Assembly: GCF_963921235.1 (NCBI RefSeq)
Contig: NC_086097.1
Coordinates: 95,420,001 to 95,484,000 of the forward strand
DNA from: Mobula hypostoma
Taxonomy: Eukaryota
Direction: 5' to 3'
DNA length: 64,000 nucleotides
Shown here: positions 24,030-63,429 of the stretch, piece by piece
How positions within the stretch are numbered: position 1 is the stretch's first letter
Layout of the letters: each line of letters begins with the position of its first letter
Made by a program: the position numbers and the translations under genes
Notes under the pieces: model-generated
Databases searched by the model: none
The model's input: only the letters and a program-made list of their open reading frames with translations
What the model was told of the DNA's origin: nothing

Positions 24030-25590
24030 AAACAAGTGGAGTTTCTTTGGCCTAATGTGTTGAAGCTGGTCAAAGACAGCAACCCAATTTAATTTCATCT
24101 TCTAGTTATGACACTTCATTAATCATCCTTGAATGCTTAAATATTATGAAGGTTTCTATCTCAACCAACCTTGCAGACTGTGTGTTCCAGACCTCTACTA
24201 CTCTTCAGGTGATTTGTTTGCCTTATTTGCCCTGTAATACTTCTAACAGTTACTTTAAATCTATATCCCTTCTGCGAAGGGAAATAGATCTCCTTATTTG
24301 CGTTAAGCCCCTCTGTTTTCTATATCTCTTTCAGGTCCTTTCTCAACCTGCTCTATTTCAAAGGAAAAACTTGAGCTTATCCGGTCTTCCCTCATAGCTA
24401 CAAAACTCCAGTTATTGCAATACTTTCATTGATCTCCTTTGTACTTGCTCCAGTACAATCACATCTCTCCTATAGTCTGCTGACCAGAACAGTAAGCAAT
24501 AGTCAAGCTGATGCCTACCTAGTGTGGTGTACTGTTCCACCATAACCTTCTTGCTTATATATCTTATGTTTTGTCTAACAGAGGAAAATAATCCATATAT
24601 ATCATTAACCATCTTGTTGACTTACTTTGCTACCTTTCACAGTCCATGATTCTTTGTTCCACCACACCACTCAAGTTTATCCCATTTATTGTATATTCTT
24701 TTGACCTTGTTGCACTTCTCTACCTGGATTATTTCAAGTCTATAAATTAAATTCTATTTGAAATTCTTCGGCACAAATGACCTATATCTTCTTATCACAA
24801 ACAAGAAAAAATCTGCAGATGCTGGACATCCAAGCAACACATACAAAATGCTGAAGGAACTCAGCAGGCCAGGCAGCATCTGTGAGAGTCCAGATGATGT
24901 TTCAGGCTGAGACCCTTCTGCAGGACCATAGATCTGGCCTGCTGAGTTCCTCCGGCATTTGGTGTGTGTTACCTATATCTTCCTAGTGTTTGAAGTTTTC
25001 CCCCTCACTGTAAACTACAAGTGTTGATTATCTCTAAACTTCTTCATCACATCTCCTACATTTAGATCATGGCATTTTAATTACTCATCTTAGAAATTCT
25101 TAAACGTAATGAAAATTTCTGCATTGTTTCTGCAGTCAACATTGTTGGCTGTGAACTTCTGAACCCTGCACTCATATCATAGATACTACTTTACTACTTA
25201 TCAATAAATTATTACTACTTATTAATAAATCACAACTGTATTTTATGTAAAACAAGGACTAAGTTTAGAGTTCTATGGATTCCCACTGGGACTGCCTTGC
25301 AGTTTCAAAAAAAATGTCCTCAGCAACACCACTGAGCCAATTTTGGATCCAACTTGCCACTTGCTGACCAGCTTGCCAACATGAAGCCTTTCTAAACACC
25401 ACACTACTCTCACCAAACCTCCACAAAGAATTAAATCAAGTTATTCAGACTTGACCTTCCCATAGCAAATCCAGGCTGGTTGTACCCAATTAATCTACTA
25501 CTTTCTCTATGAAGGCTCATATTTTTCCTTAGAATCAACTCCAATAATTTGCCCATCACCAAAGTTAACCCAACGGGCCTATAATTACTT
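24030..25590 (-). mobile_element. Highly decayed CR1 LINE
   Basis: NYRPVGLTLVMGKLLE (25431-25628) and YRRDVIVLEQVQRR (24412-24612) remnants. Confidence 0.8.
24795..24970. mobile_element. Mini Penelope-like insertion, inverted 3' termini
   Basis: Family 3' end in both orientations; TSD ACCTATATCTTC[T/C]TA at 24780-24794 and 24971-24985. Confidence 0.88.
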
Positions 25591-27326
25591 AGTTTATTAT
25601 TGTGGTCAGTCTTTCGTTCTGAATGCACTTTGTAACCTTCAGAGCACTCAGTCTAAGCTGCGAGCCACTAAGAACAAACAACTGCTTTTTGAAGAGTTTG
25701 AAGCCTTTAACAGATGTCAGTATTGACACACCAAGCCAGCCGTAGAAACACTTTATTTTTTGATGGAGCTGAAGCATTACACGGGTCAGTACCGAACAGA
25801 GTACTACACGACCACAGCCCAGCAGGAGAACTCGCAGGGACTGCGTGTGGAATTCCAGCTTGCAGCTCAGCCCCTTGGGTACAAATGCACTCATTTGTTT
25901 GTGTCACCTTTACTCGCTCTCTAAATGGCTTCAGAGAGAGCAATGGGTCAGTTTCTTATACTCTTGCAGGATTAAGAGCATGTTTTCTTTCTCTTATACG
26001 CTTGTTTGGCAAATTATAGAATCATGCAGTTCAGGATAAAAGGCTCTTTGTGCTTCTGCTGGTTCTTTGAATTGATCCAATCAATCCCCATCTCCTGTTC
26101 TCTTTCCTCAGTCCTGCATTTTCAAGTTTGTTGTTTATAAATCTACTACAGAATCAGTTTCCACCATCCTTAAAGGCATTGCATATCAGAACACTTCATC
26201 TTTTCTGAATTTTAAATCTTTGCCATCCATTTGCCACAATGCTAACTGCTGCAAGGTCATATCCTTCCAGATGTATGAGACTCTCTTGATTTTGAGCACC
26301 AGTATTCCACATCTTTTTTAGCATTCTGTTCTAATGTAAGTAAACAGTTTCTCCAAACTAAATCAGACTAAGTCCCTCATGGCTGGATCAGCCAAAACTC
26401 ATATTTATGTAAGGCCTGACAATTGATAGCAAATCCAAAAGTTTCAAGGAATAAGAAAAAAATGTCCCACTAAAGTTTGGACAAGTTCAGTTTATGCACT
26501 GACCTCTTGAATGACCGAATGTTGTTGCTGACAGGCTGGAAGTTTTAGTCAACATTCATACTTTAAGAGAATTGATATAAAAACTAGGAGACTTTAAACA
26601 GGTTCAAAATACATATGGTTATTGTTAAGGTCAGTGTGTTCAGTCCACGCAGGCAAAGTTTGAAGATTAGTGTATCTGCAATATTACAAGCTGTGTGCTC
26701 TAAGAGTCCAATGGAGCTATACAGCCTTCTGAACAGCAGCACCGCTAGGTAATTGATATGCCTTGTAAGTTTAACTATTACAACTTCTAGAGTATTTAAA
26801 TCACAAAATTCCCTGCAAAACGAAGTTGGCCATTTGTCTTAACTCACTGGCATTCATGCTCAAATTGCTCTAACTCATATTATCCTATCAGCATTATCTT
26901 CTACCCAGGTCTCCCCCGCTATCCGAAGGTAGAGCGTTCCTATGAAATGGTTCGTAAGCCGGAATGTCGTAAAGTGAACAAGCAATTACCATCTATTAAT
27001 ATGGGAAAAATTTTTGAGCTTTCCCAGACCCAAAAAATAACTTACAAAATCATGCTAAATAACACATAAAACCTAAAATAACAGTAACATATAGTAAAAG
27101 CAGGAATGATATGATAAATACACAGCCTATATAAAGTAGAAATACTTTTCTGCAGCACTGTCTAGCGCAGCAAAAATCTCACGGCAGCACTCTTGGCGGA
27201 AACACGGCGCAAGCGCTCTCGGCAGAAACACTCTCTCCAGTAACCTTTAAGCTATGAAGCTGCCAAATCATACCAAATAACACAAAAATACACAGCCTAT
27301 ATAAAGTAGAAATAATGTATGTACAG

Positions 27327-27484
27327 AACAACAGGAATTCTGCAGATGCTGGAAATTCAAGCAACACACATCAAAGTTGCTGGTGAACGCAGCAGGCCAG
27401 GCAGCATCTCTAGGAAGAGGTGCAGTCGACGTAGCCCTGACGAAGGGTCTCGGCCTGAAACGTCGACTGCACCTCTTCCTACAG
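27327..27484. mobile_element. Mini Penelope-like insertion, inverted 3' termini, inside Tigger
   Basis: Inverted AGGAAGAGGTGCAGTCGACGT arms; TSD ATAATGTATGTAC[A/T]G at 27312-27326 and 27485-27499. The empty site is visible in the other Tigger copy near 7670-7690. Confidence 0.93.
27433..27468 (+). ncRNA. Minimal type I hammerhead ribozyme motif
   Basis: CTGACGA (27437-27443), short stem II, GAAACGTC, then GACT. One mismatch in stem I. Confidence 0.7.
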
Positions 27485-28367
27485 ATAATGTATGTACTGT
27501 GTAGTTTCACTTACTGGAATCGGGAAGACTCCAGTAAATTGCAGTTTCGTCACAGTTAAACACTTGCTTATACAAATAACCACCTTCTGTAATTATTTTC
27601 TTCAGTTCTGCTGGGAACTTTTCGGCAGATTCAGTATCAGCCCAAGCACTCTCTCCAGTAAACGTTAAACTATGAAGCTGCCCTCGCCTCAGAAACCAAT
27701 CAAACCACCCTTGACTGCCTTTAAATTCCACTTTCGCAACACTTTCATCACCATCATCCAGTGCTTTCTGTTTCAGTTTATTAAACAGACTGACTGATTT
27801 CTCTTTAAATATAAGAAAACTTAACGGAACACCACGCTTTGTACACCCATCAATCCACTCAAGCAATAGACTTTCCATTTTATCCATTATTGAATGCCGA
27901 CTAAGAGAGACCACTTTGCTACGAGCAGAACCAACAGTAACATTGGCAGCTTTCAAAATTCTTTCCCTCTACGTATAAATAGTGCGAATGGTGGACGCAG
28001 GCAAGTTCAATGCGCGGACCATGTCCTTACTTCGTTCACCACGATCAAACGCTTAATTATGTCTAGTTTTATGCTAAATGTAACACGCTTACTAGCTCTT
28101 TTAGGCTCTTCCAATACCTTAGAACTCATCTTGCTAACAGATCACAAAATAAATGGAGATAAAGCACGTGTTTAAGCAATGGCGGCTAGAATGCACTTCC
28201 GGGGGAGCAGCTTGGCTGCTCGGGGTACGTGCTGCCTTTTTTCGTTAACAGTGAAAACACTTCCTGTTAGCGAAAACAGGTAACTAATGTAGGTCTTTTG
28301 TAACAGTGAGGTGTTCGGAAAAAGGGGGCCACCTGTATTCATTTCTCCCTCATGCATTTATCTTGCT

Positions 28368-30600
28368 CAAGTTCAAGTTTATTGTCTTTCAACTGTATAG
28401 TGGTGAGATAAGTTCCTAGGATGAGCTGGGACACATCACCCACAATGTAACCTGGATCACTGGGTGGTTTGGGTCTTTCAGCATCAAACACACTCGCCCA
28501 AGTGACCCAGCCAAGGTTGATCAGGCCTCTTCATGTGACCCAACAGCATTGGTCCATGGGTCACACCTCTTGATCCATAGCCACCTGGAGGCTCCCTCAG
28601 CAGCCTCTGTGATGGCCTGATGGTTTTTCTCTTTGCAGCTCTTGTAATGCTGAGGAGAGAGTAGGTTCTGCAAAGTGAGTAGCCAGCAAAACCTCTACCT
28701 CCCACCTGGTTTGCACTGTACATGCATACCACCAAACGAAACAAAGTTCCTCTGGACCAAGGTGAACATATAACTCACGCACAGCACATAAAGTAATATT
28801 ACCTCAAATAAATTATATATATTCCAGAAGATGGGCATTTAGCATAAGATGCATTTATGATACAAGTAAAAAAAGTAAATACCATAACGTTACTGGCACC
28901 TCATACACGAGACCTGGGTAGCGACAGGGAGTTCAGTAGTCTCACAGCCTGAGGGAAGAAGCTAATTCCCATCCTAATAGTCCTTGTCTAATGCTATCAT
29001 ACCTTCTGCCTGATAGGAGGGGGAGAGGTCCTGCATACACAGGTTTCTGATAAATACTTTGGGATGGGTGCTAGGGAGACCCCAATGATCCTCTCAGCAG
29101 TCCTCGCAATCCTTCGTAGGGTCTTGCAATCAGATGCCTTCCAATTCCTGTACCAGAGAGTGATGCAACTGGTCAGGACACTCTCAATAAAAACAGTATT
29201 GTAAAAATTGGTTAGATTGCACAGGTTGGAGGTGGGCGAGGCCTCGCTCACCTCAATCTCCTCAGGAAATGGGGACACTGCTGTGTTTTCTTGATTAAAA
29301 AAGTGGTGCTGAGAGACCAGGTGAGATTGTCCTTTATATGCACTCCCAGAAATTTGGTGCTCCAAATTCCCTCAGAGGAGGAGCTGCTTACGTGCTGTGA
29401 GGAATGGTCAGTCCGCACCTTCCTAATAAGACGCAAGACCATAGTGAGGTAGATTATGAAGTCAATAGTCCACCTTATCATACTAGAGAACTATTTAGCA
29501 GTCTTAAAACTGCAGGCTAGAAGCTGGCCTTGAGCCTGGTGGAACGTTCTTTCAGACTTTTCCATCTGATAGAAAATAGGAGGAGAGAGATTATCTGGGG
29601 TGGGTGGGATTTTTTATTATACTAGCTAATTTATTGAAGCAACAAGAATAACTAGAGTCCATTAAGAGGAGGCCAGTTTCCATGATGTGCTGAACTGTGT
29701 CCACAAATCTGTAGTTTCTTATGGTCATGTGCAGACCAGTCGCCATAGCAAGCTGTTATGTATCCAAATAGATTGCTTTCTACAATGCATCAATATAAAT
29801 CTCAACAGAAACACATCAAATTTCTTCAGCCTCCCGAGGAAATAGAGGCATTGGTGAGCTCTTTTGGCCATGACGTCTATGTGGTTAGACTAGGACATGC
29901 TGTTGGTGATGTTCATTCCTAAGAACCTGAAGCTCTCAGCCCTGTCAACCTCAACATCAATGATGTGAACAGGAGTAAGTACTCTGCCATCCTTCCTGAA
30001 GTCAACGACCAGGTCTTCTGCTCTGATGACATTGAGAGAAATGTTCCTGTCACGGCACCATGCTACTAAGCTCTCTATCTCCTTCCTGTACTCGGACTCA
30101 TTAATATTTGAGATATGGCCGAATACAGCGGTAACATCTGCAAACTTGTAGATTGCCGTGCAGTCACTAGTACTTTGGGAGTAGAGTGAGGGCTGAGGAT
30201 GCAACCTTGTGGAGTACCAGCGTTTCGAATAATTGTGGCAGGGATGTTGTTGCCTATCATTATTGAGTGCAGTCTGTTGGCCAGGAAGTCAAGGATCCAA
30301 TTGTAGAGCAAAGAATTGACTCCTAGGGTCTGGAGTTTGATGATGAGTTTTCTTGGAAATATAGTATTGAAAGCTGAGCTGTAGTCAATAAACTATAGTT
30401 TGACATAGGTGTCTTTACTGTGCAGATGCTCCAGAGATGAGAGTCAGGCCTGGGAGATTGTAGACCTGTTTTGGCGGTAGGCAAATTGCAGTGAGTCAAG
30501 GTTGTTTGAGAGGCAAGAGCTAATGCATGCCATAACCAGCCTCCCAAAGCACTTCAATGATGGTAGATGTCAGAGCCATTGGGCTGCAGTAACTTAAGCA
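28368..30600 (-). mobile_element. Rex1/Babar fragments, at least two copies
   Basis: IESVLTSCITLWY, KFLGVHI, YKFADVTA and LYNWILDFL motifs; (TGAACT)n-type tail at 28368. Confidence 0.85.
28398..28714 (-). mobile_element. 3' fragment of a second, divergent HERO-type family
   Basis: EVGGRGFAGYSL..AEGASRWLWIKR-like C-terminus; 3' UTR similar to 10200-10320; ACTGTA on both sides (28392-28397, 28715-28720). Confidence 0.8.
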
Positions 30601-31639: not shown

Positions 31640-31910
31640 AAAAAAAGCCATGCTTGCTTCTATATTCCTCACAACTTCCAGGATACACACAATCCTTTAC
31701 AGCCAAACATACTTTACAGTTGTAGATATGATTGAAACGTGGAACACCTGGCTGCCAATTTGTGCACAGCAAGCTCCCACAAACAGAAAAGTCACAATTT
31801 TCCAGATGAATATTAACTGGACGCTGGGAGAGTGTTTCCTTTTCCAACATAGCCCTGCAGAGTTTGTGGCTTAACGTCTCATCTGAAAGACAAGATGTCT
31901 GATGTAAGCA
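31640..31910 (-). mobile_element. Deu-domain SINE-like fragment
   Basis: Reverse complement GTCTTTCAGATGAGACGTTAAGCC matches the Deu-domain core. Related pieces at about 15700-15920, 22640-22960 and 39040-39340. Confidence 0.55.
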
Positions 31911-32683: not shown

Positions 32684-33582
32684 CACAAACAAAAGAAAAT
32701 CTGCAGATGCTAGAAATCCAAACAACACACACAAAATGCTGGAGGAATTCAACAGGCCAGACAACATCTATGGAAAAGTGTAAACAGCCAATGTTTCGGA
32801 TCGAAACCCTTCTTCAGGACTGGAGAAAAAGGATGAGAAGTCAGAGGAAGAAGGCCGGAGGAGGAGAGGAAGAACTACAACGTAGTAGGTGATACGTGAA
32901 ACCAGGAGGGGGTAGTGAAGTGAAGAGCTGGGAAGGTGATTAGTGAAAAAGATAAAGGGTTGGAGAAGGGGGAATCTGATAGGAGAGGGAGAAGGGGGAG
33001 GAGCACCAGAGGAAGATGATGGGCAGGTAAGGAGATAAGGTGAGATAGGGAAACGGGAATGGGGAATGAAGAGGGGAGGGGTGGGCAATTACCGTAAGTT
33101 CAAGAAATCAATGTTTGTTCCATCAGGTTGGAGGATACCCAGATGGAATACAAGGTGTTGCTCCTCCAACCTCAGTGTGGTATCATCGCGACAGTAGAGG
33201 AGGCCATGGACTGACATGTCAGAGTGGGAATGGGAAACAGAATTAAAATGGGTGTCCACCGAGAGATTCCACTTTGTCTGGCAGACTGAGCATAGGTGCT
33301 CAGCAAAGTAGTCTCCCAATCTTTGTCAGGTCTCACTGCTATACAGGAGGCCACACTGGGAGCACCAGGTACAGAAAGTGACCCCAACAAACTCACAGGT
33401 GAAGTGTTGCCTCTCCTGGAAGGACTGTTTAGGCCTGAATGGTAGTGAGGGAGAAGGTATGGCACTTGTTCCGCTTGCCAGGAGGGAGATCGGTGGGGAG
33501 AGATGATTGGACAAGGGAGTCCCTGTGGAAAGTGGGTGGTTGGGGCGGAGGGAAAGATGTGCTTGGTGGTGAGATCTTGTTG
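32684..33582 (-). mobile_element. Penelope-like element, single arm, 5'-truncated
   Basis: GIY-YIG remnant (CSQCGLLYSSET, LRLEEQHLVF) and 3' terminus; CTGAAGA..GAAAC hammerhead-like core near 32785-32822; possible degenerate TSD at 32671-32683 and 33583-33595 (10/13 match). Confidence 0.9.
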
Positions 33583-34640: not shown

Positions 34641-34856
34641 GCAGAATGCTGATTTCATATAGACCTTATCAGCCATCTAACAGCCTAAAGAATAAATGGA
34701 AAGAAGTCATCCTTGATCTTGAAGGACTTGTCACCAGATCAACTTAAGAAGTTTGGCTGGACATTTGAATCATTCAGCTTGGATTTTTCATTAATTGCTT
34801 TTCTCCATCAACATACTCTACATTACAATAACAGAAAAGCTTTTCAAAGATAAGGA

Positions 34857-35049
34857 ACAAGAGCAAATCTGCAGATGCTGGAAATCCAAGCAACACACAC
34901 AAAATGCTGGAAGAACTCAGCAGGCCAGGCAGCATCTATGAAAAAGAGTATAGTCAACATTTCAGGCTGAGACCCTTCAAAAGACTATGCTCTTTTTTAC
35001 AGATGCTGCCTGGCCTGCTGAGTTCCTCCAATTTTTTTTGTGTGTGTTG
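34857..35049. mobile_element. Mini Penelope-like insertion, inverted 3' termini
   Basis: Inverted arms; TSD TTCA[A/G]AGATAAGGA at 34843-34856 and 35050-35063. Confidence 0.9.
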
Positions 35050-35836
35050 TTCAGAGATAAGGACTTCAGTGCCTAAAGAAAATTTTAAACTAAGGCTAGT
35101 TCACTCTACACATGGTAGTGTTTGGATAGATCATGTAGGACTACTTTTCTTTTTGTTCCGGTAAGACAGGGTAGAGTGGCCTCTACTGTAAATTTAACCT
35201 ATGCTACACATAACTCAAGAATATCTGATAGATCAATTGGGAGGGTGTTTTATCCTGTATACACCTTGTGTGTTAAGAGTGGAGTTTATTTCACATTTTA
35301 CTCTTGCCATATTTGCTCTGAAATTAGTGCTATGCTGTACATACTAGTCTGATATATCCCAGCAAAAAGTATGAAATTAATTCTATATTACCTTGCAAGT
35401 TTTAAATGTGGCATTGTGTAGAAAGTTTCATATATAAACATATTTACATACAACTGAAACAGTATATGTTTAATGAGGCAGACTCCTTCTGTGCTCAACT
35501 GGGAGAATTTGCTGCTCGCACTGATCACTTTCTGTTATATCCGAATAAAGCACAAACTCAATTCCAAAAACATTAAATAAAACAAATTCAGATGTGAACG
35601 AAGCATTGATTTTGAAACTAGCAAACCACTGACATCTATGGATAAATAATTAGTACTACAAGCAGGTAAATGAATGCCATGTTTATTTAGTGAAACATAA
35701 AAAATGGTGAGAAAATTTGTCCCTGAACTTAACTATAGATTACTCCTTGCATATCAAATGACCGAGCAGAAGAGCTCAGCCGTTTTATCAAGAAAATGAT
35801 TATTCTCTAAAAATCCATTCAATTTGTTGTGTTTTT

Positions 35837-35949
35837 AAAAACGCAAACACGAGGAATTCTGCAGATGCTGGAAATTAGGGTCTTGGCCTGAAACGTCGGC
35901 TCTACGTCTTCCTAGAGATGCTGCCTGGTCTGCTGTGTTCACCAGCAAC
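35837..35949. mobile_element. Mini Penelope-like insertion, inverted 3' termini
   Basis: About 40 bp minus arm and 70 bp plus arm; exact 16-bp TSD TTCAATTTGTTGTGTT at 35818-35833 and 35950-35965. Confidence 0.9.
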
Positions 35950-38900
35950 TTCAATTTGTTGTGTTCTATTTCTAATTGGAACTATTTCTAATATCCATAT
36001 CTTTTTATTTTTCAAGTAATATCAGGCAATGTCAAGTAATTTCCCCTTTCTATACCAATTTCAGATCTGATTCCATTGCCTCAGCAAAATTTCTCCAAAA
36101 GTACTCCTTGATTCATTTATTAGTATCTTCAATCTCTGTCCTCTGGTTATTGATTTGCCGGCTTTTCTCTATCATTATTATTCCTATTATAACGTATTAT
36201 TAACAATTGGTTGTCCTTCAGCTCTGATGATGACAGTTAGATTTGTGCAGTTTGACTGTAGATGATGTGAACTGCATTGGGGCGGTTCTACTCTCTCAAT
36301 CTCAGACGTCCGGGTGCAGTGGTATGAGTAGTCCTCACAGCTGGGGTCTTGCTTGGTTGTAGTAGATGACCATGACTACTTCACTCCCTTCTCATGCCCT
36401 TCACTCTCCGTGATGTGCTGCAGAACTACCTTCCTGGCCATTGGATCTCACTGTTGATTTCATCCACCCAGTCTGCCAGGGCTGACTTTACATCTAAGTC
36501 AGGCATGTCCCTGTCTCACTGGAGTATAGGCCACGCTGGCTAACCTCACCTCTGCTGGAGTGTGGACACTGTCACATGAAAACAGCTACTTGGAGCTACA
36601 GGTGAGTGTCTGGTGCCAAAAGGTGAGTGAGCTACATCACAATGGACACAAGAAGCCTCTTCGTCAGAGATAATGCAGCATAGCATTCATGGGGGTGAAT
36701 CGATAAGTAAATCCACAATAATTTGGGCTATAATGGATCCTCGAGAAGATCAATGAAATAACATCTCCGTTGAGGTGTGATTACAGACTGTGTGACTAGC
36801 TGATATAAACATTATTCCCTGAAAGATATGAACTTGCATATGTTCTGGGAATCCTCTCACATCATAAAGATCTAAGTTTAATGGAATACTTTATCAACAA
36901 ATCTCACTTGAGTGCACAGTTACAATTTTAATATTAGAACTCAGGATTAAAAAGATATACACATGTTCATGGAGCACCTTCCATTACCAATAGTTAAGTG
37001 AAAAGAGACACAAGCCCTTATATTAATAATCACTTACATTGCAGAGTGCATGATTAAATGATGGTGAAATCTAAAGCTAAGATTAAACTTTGACGTTGTT
37101 GGACAGACAACTAAGATAATGCCTCTGCTCACATAAAGCAACATGCAAGCTGCAGAATACGCTCTGGAATCATCATTGACCCAGGAAGTTGGTGCACTCA
37201 GGGCAGCAGAATAAGTAGAAAGCATAAAGGAAAGTGACTCAACAGCAGAGGCAAAAGAGAGTTTTTTGAACCCTTCAATGTGATGAACCTCCCAGATTCA
37301 GAATAAATTCTCATCCTATGAAAGATTCACATCCAGCACAAAGTCTCAGCCTTTAATTTGTAACAAGGAATGGAGACACGGCAAGGGGCAGCCTGTCCTC
37401 AAATGGCAAGCATGGCAAGGGTACCGGTTGCTTGTGAACTCTCAGTTGCAACTGAATCTCACTCCATAATTGTAATTCTCTCATGAACTTGCACTGTAAA
37501 GCATTACTCCATACTAATGGAAGGAGGTTTCAAAGAAAATACCACAAAATATCACATCAGGTGAAGGGTCACATTAACAAGCAGTGGAGCAGGAGATAGA
37601 GGGGTGGAAATATTTATGAAGAGAATTCCAAAGATTGGGGCAGCTAATACGCAGCTATCAATGGCTGAGTGAGTACAATTACAGATGTGCAAAATAACAA
37701 TTCACAACAGAAAGATTTTGCTGGACTGAATTAGGATGTGGCAGTCTTGTGTTTCAAATAAGAAGGAAAAGTGTGTGGGGCAAATGACCTCAGAGAATTT
37801 AGGTAACACCTTGAAGTGAAAAACTTAATACGGGCTGTTTTTGGCTAAGGATGTGGAAACAATTCCATGCTTCACTGAGAGCCCCTGAATGGTCAAATCG
37901 TGAAACTACAGCTTTGAAATAACTGCCTGAGCCTTGAAGGTCAAAATAAATCTGAGTGTTTTAGAATGGCTGTGTGCCAAGAATAGAGAACTAAACACAA
38001 CTACTTCTGGTCACAATGCCAATATTGCAATGCTGCAGCACACAAGGCGAGCTGTGACCTCCTCTGCTTATCTTTCAGATCTGAGCTCAGTATATGTTTA
38101 CAGTACACCCTCCCAACCAGGTATTGTTTCTGAACCAGTTCTCCTGGCTCTGAGAGAGCTGGAACGCCCTCAAGCCAAATATGAGGAAAATTACTTAAAC
38201 ATTCAGAGAGCAGCTGGTATTTCTTTCAAATCCCAAGAGATCCCAAGAGATAACAAATAAGCATTTGTTTGTGAGCCTGAATCAGTAATATAATGCAGGG
38301 CCCGGGCAATAAAATAACATGGATAACCATGCAAGTGGACCATACAAGGCTGTATTCATAGCACAAATTCTCCAATTAAAAACATTACCTAAAGAGTAGA
38401 AAGATATATAAATTTGATCAAGTATAACATTTCAACAACAATTGAGAACTCTTAGCATAAGACAGGCCACACAATTTCCTGGAATGGCTCCAATTTCCCG
38501 CAGAAATGAAGAATTGGCCCTTTTCTATTAACCATTTTGTTTGTTTTTTCAAACAGATTTCTGCCCATGTCTCGTCTTCCTTCTCTCTTTTGATGTTGCG
38601 TCAGCAGATTAACTAACCACAGTGCACAGAAAGAATCCACATCTTTCATCAGGCAATACTCATGCCATAGAACCATACAAGCATCAGCACTAGGGAGTTA
38701 CCAGTGGGCTGATAAGGAAAACGTACACATGGAAGGACACAGACTGAGCAACACAAGCTTAAGTCATGGGGAAGGAACCAACAAGTACGCCAGCAGCCCC
38801 CAAAGCAGAAATGCACTTTAGATGGAGACACAAGAGAATGTAGATGCATGAATCTGGAGCAACACAAAAGGCACTGGAAGAACTCAATAGGTCAATGGCA

Positions 38901-40299: not shown

Positions 40300-41190
40300 A
40301 CGCAGAACACTTTTGTTCAGATTACAAAGGTGACCCAAGTTTCCAGTTGTCTGTGACTTGAATTTTCCACACTGTTCCCACTCTGGCCTCCTACACTGTT
40401 GCAATAAAGCTCCGGGAAAAGGACACATTACAGCCTTCCGCTCTCAATGCTGAATTCAACAATTTTAGATATTCAACCTCTTCAATTTTAAAATCACAAT
40501 TCCAGCTTTTTTGTTTTGTCTCTTCTCCTCTAGTAATTTTATACGTCTGGGAAAGGATAGGCAGAGGCAAAGACAGAGAAGCAGGACCTTCATTGCTCCC
40601 CTAAACACCAGTGGCGTAATGGGCACTCTAACACCACTACAGGAGATGAACCAGATCTCAGGAAGTGAAGCAGCAGTGAATGATCATCCTTGGCTGGGGA
40701 CCCTGCAGCTGACCTAAGGGCACTTCTGAAGATGCGGCAGACAGCAACGCCAAGCATTAAACAACATCTTCTGGTAAATCTCATTGGAGTCAAAAGAGAC
40801 TACAGAAGCTGGAATATAAAGCAAAAAAAAAACAAAGTTGGAGGAACTCATCGAGTTAGACAGCATTTATAGAAGGAAAGGGACAGTCAATATTTTGGGT
40901 TGAAACAAATCTTTTGTTATTCACTAGTATTTCCCACCCTCTCTCAACCAATATCACAGCTTTGGAGACCAGGAGAAACTGAATGACCTAACACAGTCCT
41001 TCCTCATTTTTCTTTATAAATCTGACCATTCTACCTTTGGCTCTCCTCTCAGTTCCAAGGAAGACCTTTCTCTGTAACTTTTCTCTGACTTCTCCCAGTT
41101 CCAATAAGAGATTATCAACCCATTTTTTGTTCTCCACAGACACTGTCTGAATTTCTTCAGTTACTTTGTACTCATTCAATTTTCCAGCAG
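40300..41190. mobile_element. Very old Penelope-like remnants
   Basis: Degenerate GIY-YIG C-terminus at 40300-40480 and family termini near 40800-40905 and 41120-41190. Similar relics at about 38840-38960, 43650-43755, 44170-44335, 44680-44880 and 45470-45600. Confidence 0.5.
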
Positions 41191-45300: not shown

Positions 45301-46806
45301 AGAAAGATCACAATTAGAACCCAAAAAAAGACAAAAATCCATGCTATACTATATAGACTGCAGCAACATTTCATTAAATCAATTCTTGGGATGGGAGGTT
45401 TTGCCAAGCAAGGGAGACTGAACAGACCAGAGGTGTATTAGGTGACTTCACTGAAACATACAAGAATAAAAACACAAAATGCTGGCAAAACCTCAGCAAG
45501 TGAAGCAGCAGCTATGGAAAGAGAAACCAATCTTCGACTCAAGAAATTAACCATTTCTTTTTCCATAGCTGATTTCCAGTAGTTATTGTTTTATTGCAGA
45601 TCTTTTGTTTGGAATTTTCAGAATTCTTACAGGCTTGACACAGATACTAGGAGTCATAATCTTAAAATAAAGGACAATTCAAGTCCTTTATTTGTTTTAT
45701 GAACCTTTGGAATACTTAACCAAGAGAGCTGTGCAGGTCTAATAACTAAACATGCTGAAGATAGATTATTAGATATTAAATGAACAAAGGCTAATGGGGT
45801 AAGCGCTGGAAAGTCTTACTGAGATAAAAGTGCACCTACTGTTTTACTGAATGCAGAACAGACAGAAAGACCTACTCATATTTATATTTCTTATGTAAAA
45901 GGAGGAGACAATTCCCAAATGAAATGGTAAACAGTGGAAAATGGAACATTCAGGCCATGTTCATAATAAGGACACTTTCATTCAGGTTAATTTGTGACCA
46001 CTCACTCCTGGAGCACATTTCCCATTATACCATAACCCTCATCTTTGTGATGTAGAAATTTCAGTTCAGTGTTGCTCCCCTTCAGAAGTTTCCCCAAAAC
46101 TAACAATTACAAAACTGACAAGGTTCATCCTGACCATCTACACCCAGTCTTGTACAAACAGAACACACGTGAAAATTGAGCATTTGTCCTATTGAAGTGA
46201 GTTTGGGAAATCAATCATACAAACCAATGAGATGGCAGAAGAAAGAGATATTTTGCACCAAACTTCAATACAGAAAATAGAAGTAACATCCCACAATTAA
46301 TTGCAAGTCATAAAGTTACAAGTCACTTAACAAAGACAGGAACACGTTTCAAAGCAAAAATTTGGCACCAAACTATTTACAGGGATGCCTTAGCCAATGT
46401 ACAAACTTTTAGATATTTCAAGGGAGCCAGGGAAAATTAAAAAAAAATAAAATCATCATGTTTCTTAAAAAACACCAGACCACCAAGCAGAACTAGAAAC
46501 TCCCAAAAAAAGATGAACAATATTGAAGTAACATGAATCCTACATATTTCATATGTTGATGGAAGCTAGGGAAAGACTGACATTCAATACACAATTTTGA
46601 TTCTGTTTCCTGTTCTCCACAAAACTACATACCTTGGTTCATTTACAGGGTTAATTATTATTGTATCCATGGCCCTGCTGCTAAATGGATACCTATGGAA
46701 CAAATGTCTCCTCTATCTGGGGCCTGGGGGAATTACATTTGAGGCAACACACATAAAAGTTGCTGGTGAACGCAGCAGGCCAGGCAGCATCTCTAGGAAG
46801 AGATAC

Positions 46807-46842
46807 AGTCGATGTTTCGGGCCGAGACCCTTCGTCAGGACT
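46807..46842 (-). ncRNA. Minimal hammerhead ribozyme motif
   Basis: Reverse complement AGTC CTGACGA A GGGT-CTCG-GCCC GAAACATC GACT. Core intact, but the ACGT palindrome is mutated to ACAT. Confidence 0.7.
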
Positions 46843-47142
46843 AACTGAAAGAAGAGATAGTAAGAGATTTGAAAGTGTGAGGAGGAGGGGGAGATCCAAA
46901 ATGATAGGAGAAGACAGGAGGGGGAGGGATGGAGCCAAGAGCTCGACAGTTGATTGGCAAAAGGGATATGACAGGATAATGGGACAGGAGGCCTAGGGAG
47001 AAAGAGAAGCTGCGGGGGGGGGGGAGCCCAGAGGATGGGCAAGGGGTATAGTGAGAGGGACAGAGGGAGAAAAAGGAGAGAGAGAAAAAGAATGTGTGTA
47101 TATAAATAAATAACGAATGGGGTATGAGGGGGAGGTGGGGCA

Positions 47143-48507
47143 TTAGCGGAAGTTTGAGAAGTCAATGTTCATGCCATCAGGTTGGAGGCTACCCAGACGG
47201 AATATAAGGTGTTGTTCCTCCAACCTGAGTGTGGCTTCATCTTCACAGTATAGGAGGTCGTGGATAGATATATCAGAATGGGAATAGGACGAGGAATTAA
47301 AATATGTGGCCACTGGGAGATCCTGCTTTCTCTGGCGGACAGAGCATGGGTGTGAGGCGAAATGATATCCCAGTCTGCGTCAGGTCTCGCCAATATATAG
47401 AAGGCCACATCGGGAGCACCGGACGCAGTATATCACACCAGCCGACTCACAGGTGAAGTGTCGCCTCACCTGGAAGGACTGTCTGGGGCCCTGAATGGTG
47501 GTAAGGGAGGAAGTGTAAGGGCATGTGTAGCACTTGTTCCGCTTACAAGGATAAGTGCCAGGAGGGAGAATGGTGGGGAGGGAGGGGGGGAACGAATGGA
47601 CAAGGGAGTCGCGTAGGGAGCGATCCCTGCGGAAAGCAGAGAGACGGGGGAAGGGAAAGATGTGCTTAGTGGTGGGATCCCGTTGGAGGTGGCGGAAGTT
47701 ACGGAAAATAATATGTTGGACCCGGAGGCTGGTGGGGTGGTAGGTGAGGATGGAGTGAGGGACAAGGGGAACCCTATTCGTAGTGGGGTGGCGGGAGGAT
47801 GGAGTGAGAGCAGATGTGCGTGAAATGGGGGAGATGTGTTTGAGAGCAAAGTTGATGGTGGAGGAAGGGAAGCCCCTTTCTTTAAAAAAGGAGTACATCT
47901 CCCTCGTCCTGGAATGAAAAGCCTCATCCTGAGAGCAGATGCGGCAGAGACGGAGAAATTGTGAGAAGGGGATGGCATTTTTGCAAGAGACAGGGTGAGA
48001 AGAGGAATAGTCCAGATAGCTGTGAGAGTCAGTAGGCTTATAGTACACATCAGTAGATAAGCTGTCTCCAGAGATAGAGACAGAAAGATCTAGAAAGGGG
48101 AGGGAGGTGTTGGAAATGGACCAGGTAAACTTGAGGGCAGGGTGAAAGTTGGAGGCAAAGTTAATGAAGTCAACGAGCTCAGCATGTGTGCAGGAAGCAG
48201 CGCCAATGCAGTCGTCGATGTAGCGAAGGAAAAGTGGGGGACAGATATCAGTATAGGTTTGGAACATGGATTGTTCCACAAAGGCAACAAAAAGGCAGGC
48301 ATAGCTAGGACCCATACGGGTGCCCACAGCTACACCTTTAGTTTGGAGGAAGTAGGAGGAGACAAAGGAGAAATTATTAAGAGGAAGGACTAATTCCGCT
48401 AAATGGAGCAGAGTGGTGGTAAAGGGGAACCTGTTAGGTCTGGAATCCAAAAAGAAGCGGAGAGCAATGAGACCTTCCTGATGGGGGATGGAAGTATATA
48501 GGGACTG
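47143..48507 (-). pseudogene. Penelope-like RT + GIY-YIG endonuclease, 5'-truncated
   Basis: Open from QSLYT to YIGET, then TGA where the other arm has CGA; natural end ..DFSNFR* at 47143. Confidence 0.9.
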
Positions 48508-49675
48508 ACTCTCACAGCTATCTCGACTATTCCTCTTCTCACCCTGTCTCTTGCAAAAATGCCATCCCCTTCTCGCAATTCCTCCATCTCCACCGCATCT
48601 GCTCTCAGGATGAGGCTTTTCATTCCAGGACAAGGGAGTTGTCCTCCTTTTTTAAAGAAAGGGGCTTCCCTTCCTCCACCAACAACTCTGCTCTCAAACG
48701 CATCTCCCCCATTTCACGCACATCTGCTCTCACTCCATCCTCCCGCCACCCCACTAGGAATAGGGTTCCCCTTGTCCTCACCTACCACCCCACCAGCCTC
48801 CGGGACCAACATATTTTTCTCCGTAACTTCCGCCACCTCCAACGGGATCCCACCACTGAGCACATCTTTCCCTCCACCCCCCCCACTTTCCGCAGGGTTC
48901 GCTCCCTATGCGACTCCCTTGTCCATTTGTCCCCCCACATCCCTCCCTACCGATCTCCCTCCTGGGACTTATCCTTGTAGGCGGAACAAGTACTGCACAT
49001 GCCCTTACACTTCCTCCCTTACCACCATTCAGGGCCCCAGACAGTCCTTCCAGGTGAGGCGACAGTTCACCTGTGAGTCGGCTGGGGTGATATACTGTGT
49101 CCGGTGCTCCCGATGTGGCCTTCTATATATTGGCGAGACCCGACGCAGACTGGGAGATCGTTTCGCTGAACACCTACGCTCTGTCTGCCAGAGAAAGCAG
49201 GATCTCCCAGTGGCCACACGTTTTAATTCCATGTCCCATTCCCATTCTGATATGTCTATCCACGGCCTCCTCTACTGTGAAGATGAAGCCACACTCAGGT
49301 TGGAGGAACAACACCTTATATTCCATCTAGGTAGCCTCCAACCTGATGGCATGAACATTGACTTCTCAAACTTCCGCTAATGCCCCACCTCCCCCTCGTA
49401 CCCCATCCGTTATTTATTTATATATACACATTCTTTTTCTCTCTCTCCTTTTTCTCCCTCTGTCCCTCTCACAGTACCCCTTGCTCATCCTCTGGGTTTT
49501 TCCCCCCTCCCTCTTTTCTTTCTCCCTAAGCTTCCTTTCCCATGATCCTCTCATATCCCTTTTGCCAATCACCTGTCCAGCTCTTGACTCCAACCCTCCC
49601 CCTCCTGTCTTCTCCTATCATTTTGGATCTCCCCCTCCCCCTCCCACTTTCAAATCTCTTACTAGTTCTTCTTTT

Positions 49676-49711
49676 AGTCCTGCCGAAGGGTCTCAGCCCG
49701 AAACGTCGACT
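49676..49711 (+). ncRNA. Hammerhead motif with core substitution
   Basis: AGTC CTGCCGA A GGGT-CTCA-GCCC GAAACGTC GACT. CUGA is changed to CUGC, so probably inactive. Confidence 0.55.
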
Positions 49712-50875
49712 GTACCTCTTCCTAGAGATGCTGCCTGGCCTGCTGCGTTCACCAGCAACTTTTATGTGTGTTGCTTGAATTTCCAGCATCTGCAGATTTC
49801 CTCGTGTTTACATTTGAGGCAGTATCTTTTACCCAAATCATGATTGATACAAGTTTGATACAAGTTGTTGAATCATGCACCAAGCATCAACACTGTACAA
49901 GAGACCAAACCAGTAAGGAAGAAGTGTTAGACTCTATGAGAAGCAGCCAGTAACGCAAGAAGGTCTGGAACTATTTCATCATTGCTGAAAGGTGTTGGAC
50001 TTTGACGTTGGAGGTGTTTGGTGTTTGTTCTCCGACAGTGTTTGCAGCCTCTTAGTACATGACACTAGTCTCTGCTGTAGCAGTGACCCTACACCTTGTT
50101 GTGACATCAAGTCACTCTCAGCACAGAGCTCCATCATTTTGTGCATGTAGACCCGTTGTTGCCATGGGGTTGGAGAATGGCCATCATCTCAGTGGATAGC
50201 ATGGCAAATATATGGTTATCTGCCTTTCTTCTTGAGAAATATATTTTGGATCTTTATGCTATTTTTGTGGCAATAATAATGTCCTTCAGACCAATTCTGT
50301 TATTTTTCAGAGGACCTGACCTGAAGCTTGCATTCAATGCAGCAGCTGGAGTGGGTCAAATTCCAGCCCAGATTCTGTGCCAAAGGTTGAGTGGTGCTGC
50401 TAGTATATTTGCTACTTCAGTGCTCCAGTGAACTCCAATGTTCTGTTGTGGACTGGTATGGTAACTAATTTCTCTGTGACCCTGTGGGTTTCCTCCCACA
50501 TCCCAGACATGCACAGGTTAGTAGGCTAATTGGTCATTGCAAATTTACCCTCGTGAAGAAGAGTGGTAGAATCTGGGGGAGTTGATTGAGATAATAAAAT
50601 GGAATTAGTATAAGATTCGGCATGGACTCTGTCGAAAGACCTATTTTTGTGCTATACAGTCCTATGATTTGCCTTGTCACTGGTTCTCTCCCATTCACTT
50701 GCTTGTTAGACAGCATGTGCCAGTGTGCCCTTTTCATAATCATTCTTTTAATTGGCCAAGGTTTATTGCCCACCCCTAATTACCTTCAGTAAGGAATCAC
50801 TCAGTAGACTGTGGCAAACCTTCTGATAAAGATGCTCCCACAGTTGTTATTGGGTCGAAAATGGCAGGATTTCTA

Positions 50876-59199: not shown

Positions 59200-60410
59200 A
59201 ACACATCACAGAAACAAGCCCTTCAGCCACTTCGCTCATGCCAACCAAGGCAGCCCCATTTGCTCACGCTTGCTCTGTATCTTTCTAAACATTCACTATC
59301 CATATACTTATCCATTTTTTTCTTAAACGTCATTTTATTTGTCTCAACTACTTTCTGTCACAGCTAATTCCAAATGCGTACCACACGTAAAGTTACCTTC
59401 AGGTCCCATTTATATATTCACCTCTTCGCTTAAACCTGTGCCCTCTAATTTTTGATTTCCTTTCCCTGGAAAAAAAGACTGCATTTACCCTTTCTATGCC
59501 CCTCATGATTTTGTATGCCTCTAAAAGGGCCTCCTTCAATTTCTCATGCTCCAAGGTATAAAGACCTAGCCTACCCAAACTCTCTCTTTAACTTAAGCCC
59601 TTGCAACATTTTCATAAATTTTCTTTGCACTTTTTCCAGCTTACTGACACCTTCTCTTTGAGTGGGTTATCAAAACTCAACACAATACTCCAGGTGCAGT
59701 TTCACCAATGCCTTGTAGAACTGCAACACTATGCCTCAGCTCTTATACTCAGTGCCCTTACTGATGAAGGCCAGTGACCCATATGCCTCTTTCACCAGTC
59801 TGCCTGTGACATAATTTTTAGTGAACGCTAAACCTGTACTACATGGTTCCTCTGTTCAGCAACACTCCCCAGGGAACTAACATTCACTGCGTAGGTCCTA
59901 CTCTGGTTCAACTTCCCAAAACGCAATACCTCACAAATATCCGGATTGTTCTCCATTAGCCTACTAGTCTAATTGCTCAAAATCTTCATGAAAATTTTAA
60001 TAACTTTCTTCACTATCCACCATACTACTTAATTTTAGTATCATCCATAAGCTTATTAATCATGCCTTGCACATTCTTATCCAAATTATTTATATAAATA
60101 TCAACAAGCCCCAGCAATGATCCATATTGCATAGCACTAGTCACAAACCTCCAATGCGAAAAACACCCTTCCACCAGCACCCACAGCTCCCTACCACTGA
60201 GCCAACTATGAATCCAGTTAGCAACATTTCACTGTCCTCTCACTTTTCAGACTAGCTTTCCATACAGGTTCTTTATCAAAAGTCTTGCTGAAGTCCATAG
60301 AGACAATATTCACTGTCCTGCCTTCATTTATCCCATTGGTCATCTCTTCCAAAATCTCCACAGATACAATTCCCCATGCTCAAAAGCCATGTTGGCTATT
60401 TCTAATCATG
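59200..60410 (-). mobile_element. Decayed CR1
   Basis: Reverse CR1 3' end (GAAACAAGCCCTTCAGCC) and YMDFSKTFDK-like remnant near 60270-60300. Confidence 0.75.
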
Positions 60411-61418: not shown

Positions 61419-61446
61419 ATGAACTAGCAAGTCTAAGGTACTAAAC

Positions 61447-61526
61447 CAGGGATTCCCAACCTTCTTTATGCCATGGACGAATACCATTAAGCAAGTGGTC
61501 CATGGAACACAAGTTAGGAACCCCTG
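61447..61526. mobile_element. hAT/Charlie-like MITE, 80 bp
   Basis: TIRs CAGGG[A/G]TTCC[C/T]AAC; internal CCATGGAC/GTCCATGG inverted pair; 8-bp flanks degenerate (TACTAAAC / CTTTAAAG). Confidence 0.7.
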
Positions 61527-61965
61527 CTTTAAAGAGTGCTTGTTTGAAAAGCTGTGCTTTTAACTTAAGCTGATTACTGCTTTCCTTTTACATTTTAAGA
61601 ACTGAAGACTGAATCCCATTTACGACCAGACACTAAACAAAGCATAGTTGGAAGTTTACTTACAGTACATTTGTTTGAACTTACAACCAGCAGCTGCTGT
61701 GTTTAGAAAGTAGATTAGCAAACATGAGCCAGGGTGCAAACATCTATCACAGAGGTATTGCACTTTAGGAGGGCAAACAAGGGTAGAACTTACATAGTGA
61801 GTGGCAGGACTCCAAGGATTGTAGTAGAACAGAGGGATCTCGGAATACAGATCCATAATTCCTTGAAACTGATGTCACAGGTGATAGGGTCACAAAGAAA
61901 GCTTTTGGCACACTAGCCATCATAAGTCAAAGTACAGAGTACAGGAGTTGGGATGTTACATTGAA

Positions 61966-62782
61966 CAACAGGAATTCTGCAGATGCTGGAAATTCAAGCA
62001 ACATACATCAAAGTTGCTGGTGAATGCAGCAGGCCAAGCAGCATCTGTAGGAAGAGGTGCAGTCGACATTTCAGGCCGAGACCCTTCGTCTGGACTAACT
62101 GAAGGAAGAGTGAGTAAGGGATTTGAAAGTTGGAGGGGGAGGGGGAGATCCAAAATGATAGGAGAAGACAGGAGGGGGAGGGATAGAGCCAAGAGCTGGA
62201 CAGGTGATAGGCAAAAGGGAATACGAGAGGATCATGGGACAGGAGGTCCGGGAAGAAAGACAAGGGGGGGTGACCTAGAGGATGGGCAAGGGGTATATTC
62301 AGAGGGACAGAGGGAGAAAAAGGAGAGTGAGAGAAAGAATGTGTGCATAAAAATGAGTAACAGATGGGGTACGAGGGGGAGGTGGGGCCTTAGCGGAAGT
62401 TAGAGAAGTCGATGTTCATGCCATCAGGTTGGAGGCTACCCAGATGGAATATAAGGTGTTGTTCCTCCAACCTGAGTGTGGCTTCATCTTTACAGTAGAG
62501 GAGGCCGTGGATAGACATGTCAGAATGGGAATGGGATGTGGAATTAAAATGTGTGGCCACTGGGAGATCCTGCTTTCTTTGGCGGACAGAGCGTAGATGT
62601 TCAGCAAAGCGGTCTCCCAGTCTGCGTCGGGTCTCGCCAATATATAAAAGGGGCAACGCAGACTGGGAGACCGCTTTGCTGAACATCTAGTCCTGACGAA
62701 GGGTCTCGGCCTGAAACGTCGACTGCACCTCTTCCTACAGATGCTGCTTGGCCTGCTGCGTTCACCATCAACTTTGATGTAT
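61966..62782. mobile_element. Penelope-like element with inverted arms (minus 61966 to about 62650; fold-back 62656-62689; plus 62688-62782)
   Basis: YIGETRRRLGDRFAEH..DFSNFR on minus; exact TSD GATGTTACATTGAA at 61952-61965 and 62783-62796. Confidence 0.95.
62689..62724 (+). ncRNA. Minimal type I hammerhead ribozyme, best-preserved copy
   Basis: Stem I AGTC/GACT; CTGACGA 62693-62699; stem II GGGT-CTCG-GCCT; GAAA 62713-62716; CGTC with predicted cleavage after 62720; ACGT palindrome. Confidence 0.8.
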
Positions 62783-63429
62783 GATGTTACATTGAAGTTG
62801 TTTTAAGGCATTGGTGAGGCCTAAATTGGAGTATTGTTCACCTACCTACAGGAAAGATGTCAATTTTTTTTCACCTGCCTGCAGGATGTCAATAACATTG
62901 AAAGAGGGCAGAGAAAATTTATAAGGATGTTGTCAAGACTTGAGGACCTCGGTTATAGGGAAAGGTTGAATAGGTTAGAACTTTATTCCCCAGAGAGAGG
63001 AGAGATTTGATAGAGGCATACAAAATTATGAGGGATATCGATACAGTAAATGCAAGCTGGATTTTTCCACCGAGTTGGTTGAGGCTAGAACTAAAGATCA
63101 TGGGTTAAGGGTGAAAGGTGAAATATTTAAGAGGAACATGAAGGGGAACATCTTCACTCAGAGTGTGGAATGAGTTGCCACTGGAAGTGGTGGATGTGGA
63201 TCAGATTCTGATTTCAACATTTCAACAAGGGAAATTTGATGGGAGGTGTAAGGAGGGCTACGGTTCAGGCGCAAATCAATGGGACACAGCATTTAATAGT
63301 TTAGCATGGACTAGATAGGCTGAAGGGCCTGTGTCTGTGCTGTGGTGTTCTATGACTCTATGGCATACAATAATAAACTAGGAATAACATAATAGGAAGA
63401 AGTTCTGCAGGTGCATGGAAAGGAGGCAA

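What the first reader, a model, noticed from the sequence alone, without database searches (positions are those of the whole stretch)
24780..62796. Penelope-like family inserts as 'two 3' ends outward' inverted units with uniform 14-16 bp TSDs
Seen: six insertions (24795-24970, 27327-27484, 34857-35049, 35837-35949, 46747-49807, 61966-62782; about 110 bp to 3 kb) each carry the same element 3' region twice, inverted, between direct repeats of 15, 15, 14, 16, 14 and 14 bp. A seventh (11157-13812) has the same layout without a clear TSD. Two sit inside other repeats whose empty site shows the duplication is target-derived. Established: inverted pLTR arrangements occur in Penelope-like elements, and L1 twin priming inverts but does not duplicate sequence. 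Inference: a roughly 15-nt staggered GIY-YIG cut whose two 3'-OH ends both prime reverse transcription on 3' ends (two RNAs, or one tandem RNA), after which the two cDNAs are joined. The short products look like MITEs or SINEs but would be direct retrotransposition products.
Basis: partly seen in the sequence, partly recalled or inferred. Interest (0 to 1): 0.78.

Follow-up and report, generated by a model that had tools for sequence, protein, structure and literature searches.

The report
Head-to-head Penelope retroelement insertions
These back-to-back, two-armed repeats are shortened copies of a Penelope-like jumping gene in a layout already described for this class; their lopsided ends suggest that both cut ends of the target DNA started copying the element's RNA at two fixed points about 35 bases apart.

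Summary
Real, but mostly known. Six head-to-head units sit between 14-16 bp direct repeats (chance 1 of 3000); two have paralogous empty sites. They derive from a Neptune-type Penelope-like element (RT, GIY-YIG, minimal hammerhead). One unit has non-overlapping arms, and two further single-armed copies exist. Inverted PLE units inside one TSD with a one-sided tail are published (PMC3846280, PMC8557442). In vitro, a PLE extends both nicked strands from two start sites that bound the tail (PMC11167929). L1 twin priming does duplicate sequence (17%) and L1 TSDs are ~15 bp. Best model: both nicks prime RT, one at each start site (a fixed twin priming), then the cDNAs join. Fold-back of one cDNA fails for 4 of 7 units. 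One RNA versus two is unresolved; no genome-wide TSD census was possible. The scan noted this pattern before in other windows of this genome. What may be new is the strict end coupling and a gap in arm lengths.

The parts
24780..24985 (.). Unit 1: TSD 24780-94, tail+ arm 24795-24926 (sense on -), tail- arm 24927-24970 (sense on +), TSD 24971-85
   Evidence: contigs run from flank into the unit in runs of organisms B and C
27312..27499 (.). Unit 2: TSD 27312-26, tail+ arm 27327-27432 (-), tail- arm 27432-27484 (+; ends 46 nt short of the usual tail- site, 2-nt match to target), TSD 27485-99; inside a Tc5/Tigger-like DNA transposon
34843..35063 (.). Unit 3: TSD 34843-56, tail+ arm 34857-34979 (-), 3-nt filler, tail- arm 34983-35049 (+; begins at the predicted hammerhead cut), TSD 35050-63
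   Evidence: present in organisms B and C
35818..35965 (.). Unit 4: TSD 35818-33, tail-only arm 35834-35876 (-), body arm 35877-35949 (+), TSD 35950-65; arms do not overlap
   Evidence: present in A and B, probably empty in C (X9 record 32)
46733..49821 (.). Unit 5: TSD 46733-46, tail- arm 46747-48503 (-), tail+ arm 48504-49807 (+), TSD 49808-21; arms about 92% alike; 3-4 nt shared at the junction
61952..62796 (.). Unit 6: TSD 61952-65, tail+ arm 61966-62651 (-), 34-nt snap-back piece 62656-62689, tail- arm 62688-62782 (+), TSD 62783-96; inside a LINE-like repeat
11157..13812 (.). Unit 7 (older subfamily): tail- arm 11157-about 13236 (-), tail+ arm 13256-13812 (+); no significant TSD
32684..33582 (-). 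Single tail+ arm, 5'-truncated, no inverted partner; possible decayed 13-bp TSD
40792..40906 (-). Old single tail+ arm ending in the hammerhead region
47380..48651 (-). 5'-truncated reading frame: RT core (YIDD), thumb, CX4CXXC linker, start of GIY-YIG
48502..49380 (+). 5'-truncated, frame-shifted reading frame ending in the GIY-YIG endonuclease
   Evidence: (PF01541, E 7e-4, below the curated cut-off)
49675..49712 (+). Minimal hammerhead motif (stem I, CUGAnGA-like core, stem II, GAAAC-GUC); predicted cut after 49707; also at 27432 and 62688
   Evidence: pattern scan; no activity test; Rfam gave no hammerhead hit
7641..7745 (-). Paralogous empty site of unit 2, TSD word present once
59682..59786 (-). 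Paralogous empty site of unit 6 (67% identity)

Best explanation
These are 5'-truncated insertions of a high-copy Neptune-type Penelope-like element, each made in one event. The GIY-YIG domain nicks both target strands about 14-16 bp apart, leaving 3' overhangs. Each 3'-OH primes reverse transcription on element RNA: one at the distal start site (tail+ arm), the other about 35 nt upstream or at a nearby spot with 1-3 nt of chance pairing (tail- arm). The two growing cDNAs are joined end to end, with little or no microhomology, and filled in. This gives a head-to-head unit in one TSD. It works like L1 twin priming with a fixed second priming site; because the sites are close, the arms usually duplicate each other. 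Shown: layout, TSDs, empty sites, end asymmetry, independent templating of the arms in 4 of 7 units. Inferred: nick geometry, RT priming at both ends in vivo, the joining step, and whether one or two RNA molecules serve as template.
For: TSD of 14-16 bp around the pair in 6 of 7 units. Empty sites in two paralogues and probably in a relative. One tail+ and one tail- end in 7 of 7 units; P at most 0.008 if each arm chose freely. Tail+ ends at ref 1303-1317, tail- ends at 1266-1271 in 5 of 7. In 4 of 7 units each arm holds sequence that the other lacks, which one folded-back cDNA cannot give (intervals read). The six TSD-bounded tail- ends share 8 nt in all with the RNA continuation (null P 0.008). 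Both arms of a unit belong to the same subfamily, and unit 6 arms share two variants absent from the other young arms. TSDs are AT-rich (63 of 88 bases; P 0.004 against the window, 0.047 against local flanks). PAc cleaves AT-rich DNA, extends top and bottom strands, starts RT at two sites that bound the tail, and is predicted to be a dimer (PMC11167929).
Against: Only 7 units and 6 TSDs from one window; no genome was held. Two of 9 copies are single-armed. Two of 7 tail- ends (ref 1224, 1256) are off the usual site. In vitro, PAc showed no difference in start site between strands, and PAc is Poseidon-clade, not Neptune. Junction microhomology is weak (about 0-4 nt). Target-to-element microhomology also fits end joining after a nuclease cut. 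Unit 5 arms are barely closer to each other (92.3%) than one is to unit 6 (91.2%). Three of 7 units are compatible with fold-back and unit 6 holds a real snap-back piece. Loose-end piles at 34888-89 still read like tail sequence, so the contig data support the tail+ end clearly and the tail- end only weakly.
Confidence: 0.6

Rival explanations
1. The tail- end is made by endonuclease resolution: RT primes once, copies a tandem or folded intermediate, and GIY-YIG cuts the DNA intermediate at the tail boundary before it is joined to the second target end.
For: PMC8557442 (passages) ascribes the tail to EN-mediated resolution; the D. virilis EN needs the tail sequence for cleavage (cited in PMC11167929). 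It explains a fixed tail- end and one-sidedness, and allows microhomology at that end.
Against: PAc RT start sites map to both tail boundaries in vitro. It does not easily give unit 4 (non-overlapping arms) or units in which the tail- arm reaches further 5'.
Confidence: 0.17
2. Self-priming or fold-back: one cDNA (or an antisense transcript) folds on itself and copies back, giving the inverted arm.
For: Proposed for rotifer PLEs from palindromes at junctions (PMC3846280). In units 1, 3 and 6 the tail- arm lies wholly within the tail+ arm. Unit 6 has a perfect 34-nt snap-back.
Against: Fails for units 2, 4, 5, 7. The contained arms end at the same tail- site (ref 1266-1270) as the non-contained arms of units 5 and 7 (1268, 1271), so one mechanism is simpler.
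Confidence: 0.1
3. The short units are a separately amplified MITE or SINE derived from the PLE end.
For: Short, hairpin-like, very abundant. Some contig joints with other junctions have depths of 68-157 in 1-4 contigs against about 8-10 for unique flank, which could mean recurrent or amplified junctions.
Against: All 4 short units, and all 7 units, have different junctions. Ends are asymmetric; TSD is 14-16 bp; sizes run from about 116 bp to 3 kb with the same ends; no tRNA gene was called. Contigs show at least four further junction positions. Contig depth is not a copy number.
Confidence: 0.06
4. Two separate insertions at one site, or repair of a double-strand break by capture of two cDNAs without the element's endonuclease.
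For: Very high copy number; an earlier unchecked note (e1-7808845) reads one pair as two RNA templates; unit 2 arms differ at one subfamily-variable site.
Against: One TSD of narrow size around the pair; same subfamily in both arms; strict tail asymmetry.
Confidence: 0.07

Closest known systems
Inverted-pLTR insertions of EN+ Penelope-like elements: Pen2a_Av and relatives in Adineta vaga (PMC3846280, passages), D. virilis Penelope form C (PMC2377424, passages), general scheme in PMC8557442 (passages)
   Same: Head-to-head arms, one TSD around the whole unit, 5'-truncated inverted copy, 30-40 nt tail often at one end only, hammerhead motif near the end.
   Different: TSDs here are 14-16 bp against 8-10 bp in the three rotifer cases read; the tail is one-sided in 7 of 7; four units are under 200 bp; no tandem pLTR copy in this window.
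PAc, Poseidon of Anolis carolinensis (PMC11167929; parts 1-3 of 4 read: main text, methods, start of references)
   Same: Two RT start sites bounding the tail downstream of a hammerhead; both target strands cut and extended; AT-rich targets.
   Different: Poseidon clade; the parts read give no model for inverted units or TSD size; its start region is AC-rich, here the RNA is GU-rich at both ends.
L1 twin priming (PMC2912911, 10.1101/2024.08.27.596794, PMC4245944; passages)
   Same: Both nicks prime RT, cDNAs join, 5' part inverted, TSD about 15 bp, deletion or duplication at the junction (units 4 and 2 look just like this).
   Different: No poly(A); the second primer lands at a near-fixed site 35 nt from the first, not anywhere inside; duplication is the rule (6 of 7; 25-1268 nt) and inversion is the majority outcome (7 of 9).
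Opposite-strand pairs of minimal hammerheads 100-700 bp apart in Schistosoma PLEs (PMC4209133, parts 1-2 of 4 read)
   Same: Short inverted PLE remnants carrying the ribozyme motif.
   Different: TSDs and tails are not described in the parts read.

Membership tests
EN+ Penelope-like element | [quoted passage not shown] | tested here: met
   Frame 47380-48651 has the RT core through VIYC..YIGET; 82 homologues of 743-1130 aa, best 53-54% identical, most annotated RVT_1 and many GIY-YIG. Only truncated copies in the window; direct Pfam support is weak (E 7e-4).
EN+ Penelope-like element | Two cysteines between GIY and YIG (CCHH motif) | tested here: met
   VIYCVRCSRCGLLYIG in both arms of unit 5; C412 and C415 invariant in alignment A1; feature taken.
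EN+ Penelope-like element | Minimal hammerhead motif in the terminal repeat | tested here: met
   3 pattern hits (27432, 49675, 62688), decayed versions in other arms. Rfam found none; the minimum-energy fold does not show it; cleavage not tested.
EN+ Penelope-like element | 30-40 nt tail at one end; inverted 5'-truncated copy; TSD | tested here: met
   7 of 7 units one-sided; TSD in 6 of 7.
EN+ Penelope-like element | Partial tandem forming direct pLTRs around a full ORF | not testable with these tools
   No full-length copy in the window; no genome held; no related loci in the collections.
Neptune clade | CX2-5CxxC linker between RT and EN | tested here: met
   CKRNKCYTC / CRRNKYCTC; C369, C374, C377 invariant. 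Shared with Nematis.
Neptune clade | RT phylogeny with named Neptune references | not tested
MITE | Symmetric terminal inverted repeats and a shared internal structure across copies | tested here: not met
   Ends asymmetric, seven different junctions; only this window and the top rows of the contig joints were seen.
SINE | tRNA- or 5S-derived Pol III head | tested here: not met
   Short units align wholly to the PLE end; no tRNA call and no such Rfam hit.
L1-type twin priming | Both target ends prime cDNA; TSD retained; 5' inversion | tested here: inconclusive
   Product structure fits; priming itself is inferred.
L1-type twin priming | Both primers on the same RNA molecule | tested here: inconclusive
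   Unit 6 arms share two variants, unit 5 arms share subfamily markers, unit 2 arms differ at one variable site.
L1-type twin priming | First primer on a poly(A) tail, APE endonuclease | tested here: not met
   No poly(A) at the tail+ ends; the endonuclease is GIY-YIG.

The most novel reading that the evidence does not exclude
Penelope-like elements integrate by programmed twin priming. One RNP, probably a dimer, holds a single RNA with its two RT active sites at fixed positions about 35 nt apart, cuts the target with a ~15-bp stagger and primes both strands, so the tail, the inverted arm and the TSD are three marks of one geometry. Short arms, which stop at or inside the hammerhead (9 of 16 arms end 51-98 nt upstream of the tail- site, none between about 100 and 578), would be run-offs from the 5' pLTR copy of the transcript, whose start or splice boundary lies at hammerhead stem I; long arms would come from the 3' copy.
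Probability: 0.3. Interest if true: 0.62.

Novelty: new member of a known kind. Interest (0 to 1): 0.33.

Why it matters
The steps after first-strand priming in PLE transposition are stated to be unvalidated (PMC11167929). A family with a very large number of copies, short two-armed units and clear TSDs is a natural data set for deciding between twin priming, endonuclease resolution and fold-back. It also warns annotators that these 100-200 bp hairpins are neither MITEs, SINEs nor microRNA precursors (Rfam gives sub-threshold MIR hits on unit 3). The layout itself is not new.

Tried and rejected
Own genome not held, so no census. A terminal pattern found 0 loci in viral, genome and metagenome contigs; protein-based locus searches found none. 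Rfam: 10 matches at E up to 1, all below gathering score, none a hammerhead; the MIR8670 hit reflects the unit 3 hairpin. The terminal 143 nt do not fold better than shuffles (z -0.97). The idea that the pyrimidine-rich 3' UTR explains the gap in arm lengths by lack of microhomology: it only halves matches of 2 nt or more (2.9% against about 6%), too weak alone. Hammerhead cleavage as the general 5' limit: only 1 of 9 short arms starts at the cut. TSDs for unit 7 and the copy at 40792: not significant. By eye the six TSDs show no consensus beyond AT richness. 'Opposite strand' joints 27469/34940-50 were read as mapping between subfamilies, not inversions. Run X17 covered too little unique flank to use. 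Literature: eight answered searches; the 'Penelope + twin priming + inverted' search listed two papers (not read; titles concern human TEs and telomerase RNA), and I saw no listing that proposes twin priming for PLEs. [quoted passage not shown] The supplements of PMC11167929 held as text gave no hits (figures not visible); bioRxiv supplements are closed.
Full report
Observation. The six units are at the stated places and are inverted pairs of one repeat family. An unbiased scan around the ends found direct repeats of 15, 15, 14, 16, 14 and 14 bp with 1, 1, 1, 0, 0 and 0 mismatches; 1 of 3000 random pairs reached 13 bp with at most one mismatch. Unit 7 has no significant TSD. Removing the insert and one TSD copy in silico gives a continuous match to paralogous repeats for 2 of 6 units: unit 2 at 7641-7745 (92%) and unit 6 at 59682-59786 (67%). 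The other four gave no spanning paralogue in the window.

What the element is. The long arms encode the RT core, thumb, a CX4CXXC linker and a GIY-YIG domain with two internal cysteines. Pfam support on the window's own fragments is weak (GIY-YIG E 7e-4, below cut-off), but 82 longer homologues were found, the best 53-54% identical, and the two scanned carry RVT_1 plus GIY-YIG. The linker marks Neptune or Nematis and is absent from Penelope/Poseidon (10.1101/2021.04.23.441226, passages); Neptune and Poseidon are the clades reported as widespread in vertebrates (10.64898/2026.07.22.740005, passages). I call it Neptune-type without a tree. A minimal hammerhead motif lies about 65 nt upstream of the short end, as described for PLE repeats (PMC4209133, parts 1-2). 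The family fills 8,196 of 64,000 bases. Earlier scan notes call the host a ray; I did not test that.

With window 48504 as ref 1, one arm of every unit ends at ref 1303-1317 (tail+) and the other at 1266-1271 (5 of 7), 1256 or 1224 (tail-). All 7 units are asymmetric; if arms chose their end independently this has P at most 0.008, or 0.03 for the five with both ends at the usual sites. Unit 4 has a tail-only arm and a body-only arm with an 18-nt gap; unit 2 shares 25 nt. So 'the same region twice' holds well for 5 of 7. Two more copies have a single tail+ arm. Arm 5' limits are bimodal: of 16 arms, 9 end 51-98 nt upstream of the tail- site (8 within the hammerhead, two at the same base at the start of stem I, one at the predicted cut), 1 is tail only, and 6 are 578 nt or longer. 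Under simple exponential truncation with mean 100-500 nt, 9 of 10 in that bin has P at most 0.0015 (a test chosen after seeing the data). Just upstream of stem I is a pyrimidine tract ending in CAG that reads as an initiator or a splice acceptor; in D. virilis the intron ends at helix I and the promoter is internal (PMC2377424, passages). This is a lead only.

Outside evidence. No genome was held and five collection scans were empty. Public runs of three organisms hold 81%, 55% and 13% of the words of 27000-36300 at best; the best may be the source sample. Four runs were laid on 24400-36400; the output showed only 32 of 583,706 pieces, 15 of 9,961 joints and 24 of 16,329 loose-end rows. Contigs run from flank into units 1, 3 and 4 in organism B and into units 1 and 3 in organism C. 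In C the contig from unit 3 stops aligning at 35817, one base before unit 4's TSD, and goes on for 347 letters that were not shown, whereas A and B contigs reach 35856-58 inside the arm. This fits an empty site in C, but the joint itself was not listed. Loose ends pile up before 34856, the tail+ end (1190, 1147, 1439 and 170 records), with A-rich flanks. Piles at 34888-95 mark the tail- position, but the consensus at 34888-89 still resembles tail, so support there is weak. Four further arm-to-arm joints laid on unit 2 (27361, 27377, 27393, 27406 to 27436-48) show other short units with other junctions; their depth exceeds unique flank, so some junctions may recur.

Mechanism. Orientation fits cDNA primed from both nicks: the top-strand 3' end yields the left antisense arm, the bottom-strand 3' end the right arm, and 3' overhangs give the TSD (inference from the standard TPRT model). 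One folded-back cDNA needs one arm to lie within the other; this fails in units 2, 4, 5 and 7 and is allowed in 1, 3 and 6 (intervals entered by hand). The six TSD-bounded tail- ends match the RNA continuation by 0, 2, 0, 2, 3 and 1 nt (P 0.008), as for a primer that anneals internally, though end joining would look the same. Junctions show about 0-4 shared bases, a 3-nt filler, or a snap-back piece. Arms of a unit come from one subfamily; unit 6 arms share two variants not seen in the other young arms; unit 5 arms differ at 88 of 1,266 columns, with the outgroup siding 31 times with one arm and 41 with the other, which does not separate one RNA from two.

Comparison. The typical Penelope structure has an adjacent inverted pLTR, one TSD (9, 10 and 8 bp in three rotifer cases) and an optional 31-bp tail on one end; head-to-head is the most frequent arrangement and was ascribed to self-priming (PMC3846280, passages). 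PMC8557442 (passages) draws the same scheme and ascribes the tail to EN resolution. PMC11167929 (parts 1-3 of 4) shows both strands cut and extended, two start sites bounding the tail and a predicted dimer, and leaves later steps open. L1 twin priming leaves deletions in 66% and duplications in 17% of 1,703 inverted insertions and L1 TSDs are about 15 bp; the model is summarised in PMC2912911 (passages). I did not find that synthesis in the eight searches listed under Tried and rejected, which miss subscription journals and Repbase.

Earlier scan notes (one search found none) report the same kind of unit in other windows of this genome, with 14- and 16-bp TSDs. They are unchecked and are not counted as support; my reading was set before I saw them.

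Verdict. A real, well-marked example of a known PLE insertion pattern. The added value is the strict coupling of one tail+ and one tail- end, the exclusion of simple fold-back in 4 of 7 units, and the arm-length gap. Together these make programmed twin priming a concrete, testable hypothesis. Interest 0.33.

Noticed in passing
window 62594-62689: Inside unit 6, a perfect 34-nt inverted copy with a 28-nt loop: the long cDNA seems to have snapped back on itself before joining the short arm, like a templated insertion of end joining.
   Followed up: partly
window 49375-49677 and equivalents: The element's 3' UTR is 70-86% pyrimidine over about 300 nt and ends in a CAG just before hammerhead stem I (initiator-like or splice-acceptor-like); no arm ends inside this tract.
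   Followed up: partly
window 34983: The tail- arm of unit 3 begins exactly at the predicted hammerhead cut (1 of 9 short arms).
   Followed up: partly
window 26906-28321 and 6779-8102: Two copies of a Tc5/Tigger-like DNA transposon (HTH_Tnp_Tc5 at 27507-27968); the copy at 6779-8102 lies within an RT plus zf-RVT LINE (about 6119-9886).
   Followed up: partly
window 27116-27144 / 27286-27314 and 27226-27264 / 27644-27682: Short direct repeats (29 bp exact; 39 bp, 90%) inside the DNA transposon next to unit 2.
   Followed up: no
window 14855-15203 and 17584-17953: A direct repeat pair of about 350 bp, 86% alike, 2.7 kb apart; could be dispersed copies or LTR-like ends.
   Followed up: no
window 3375-4238, 4319-6148, 10177-10776, 20552-21073, 29890-30533, 41445-42065, 59467-59786, 61888-63069: Decayed fragments of other retroelements; Gypsy-like, CR1-like and RTE/Rex-like labels are by recall from the translations, and only RVT_1 hits at 5322-5777 and 20552-21070 come from a search.
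   Followed up: no
window 34895-35043: Unit 3's hairpin scores E 1.5e-10 against a plant microRNA model but far below its gathering score; such units could be mis-annotated as microRNA precursors or give hairpin RNAs.
   Followed up: no
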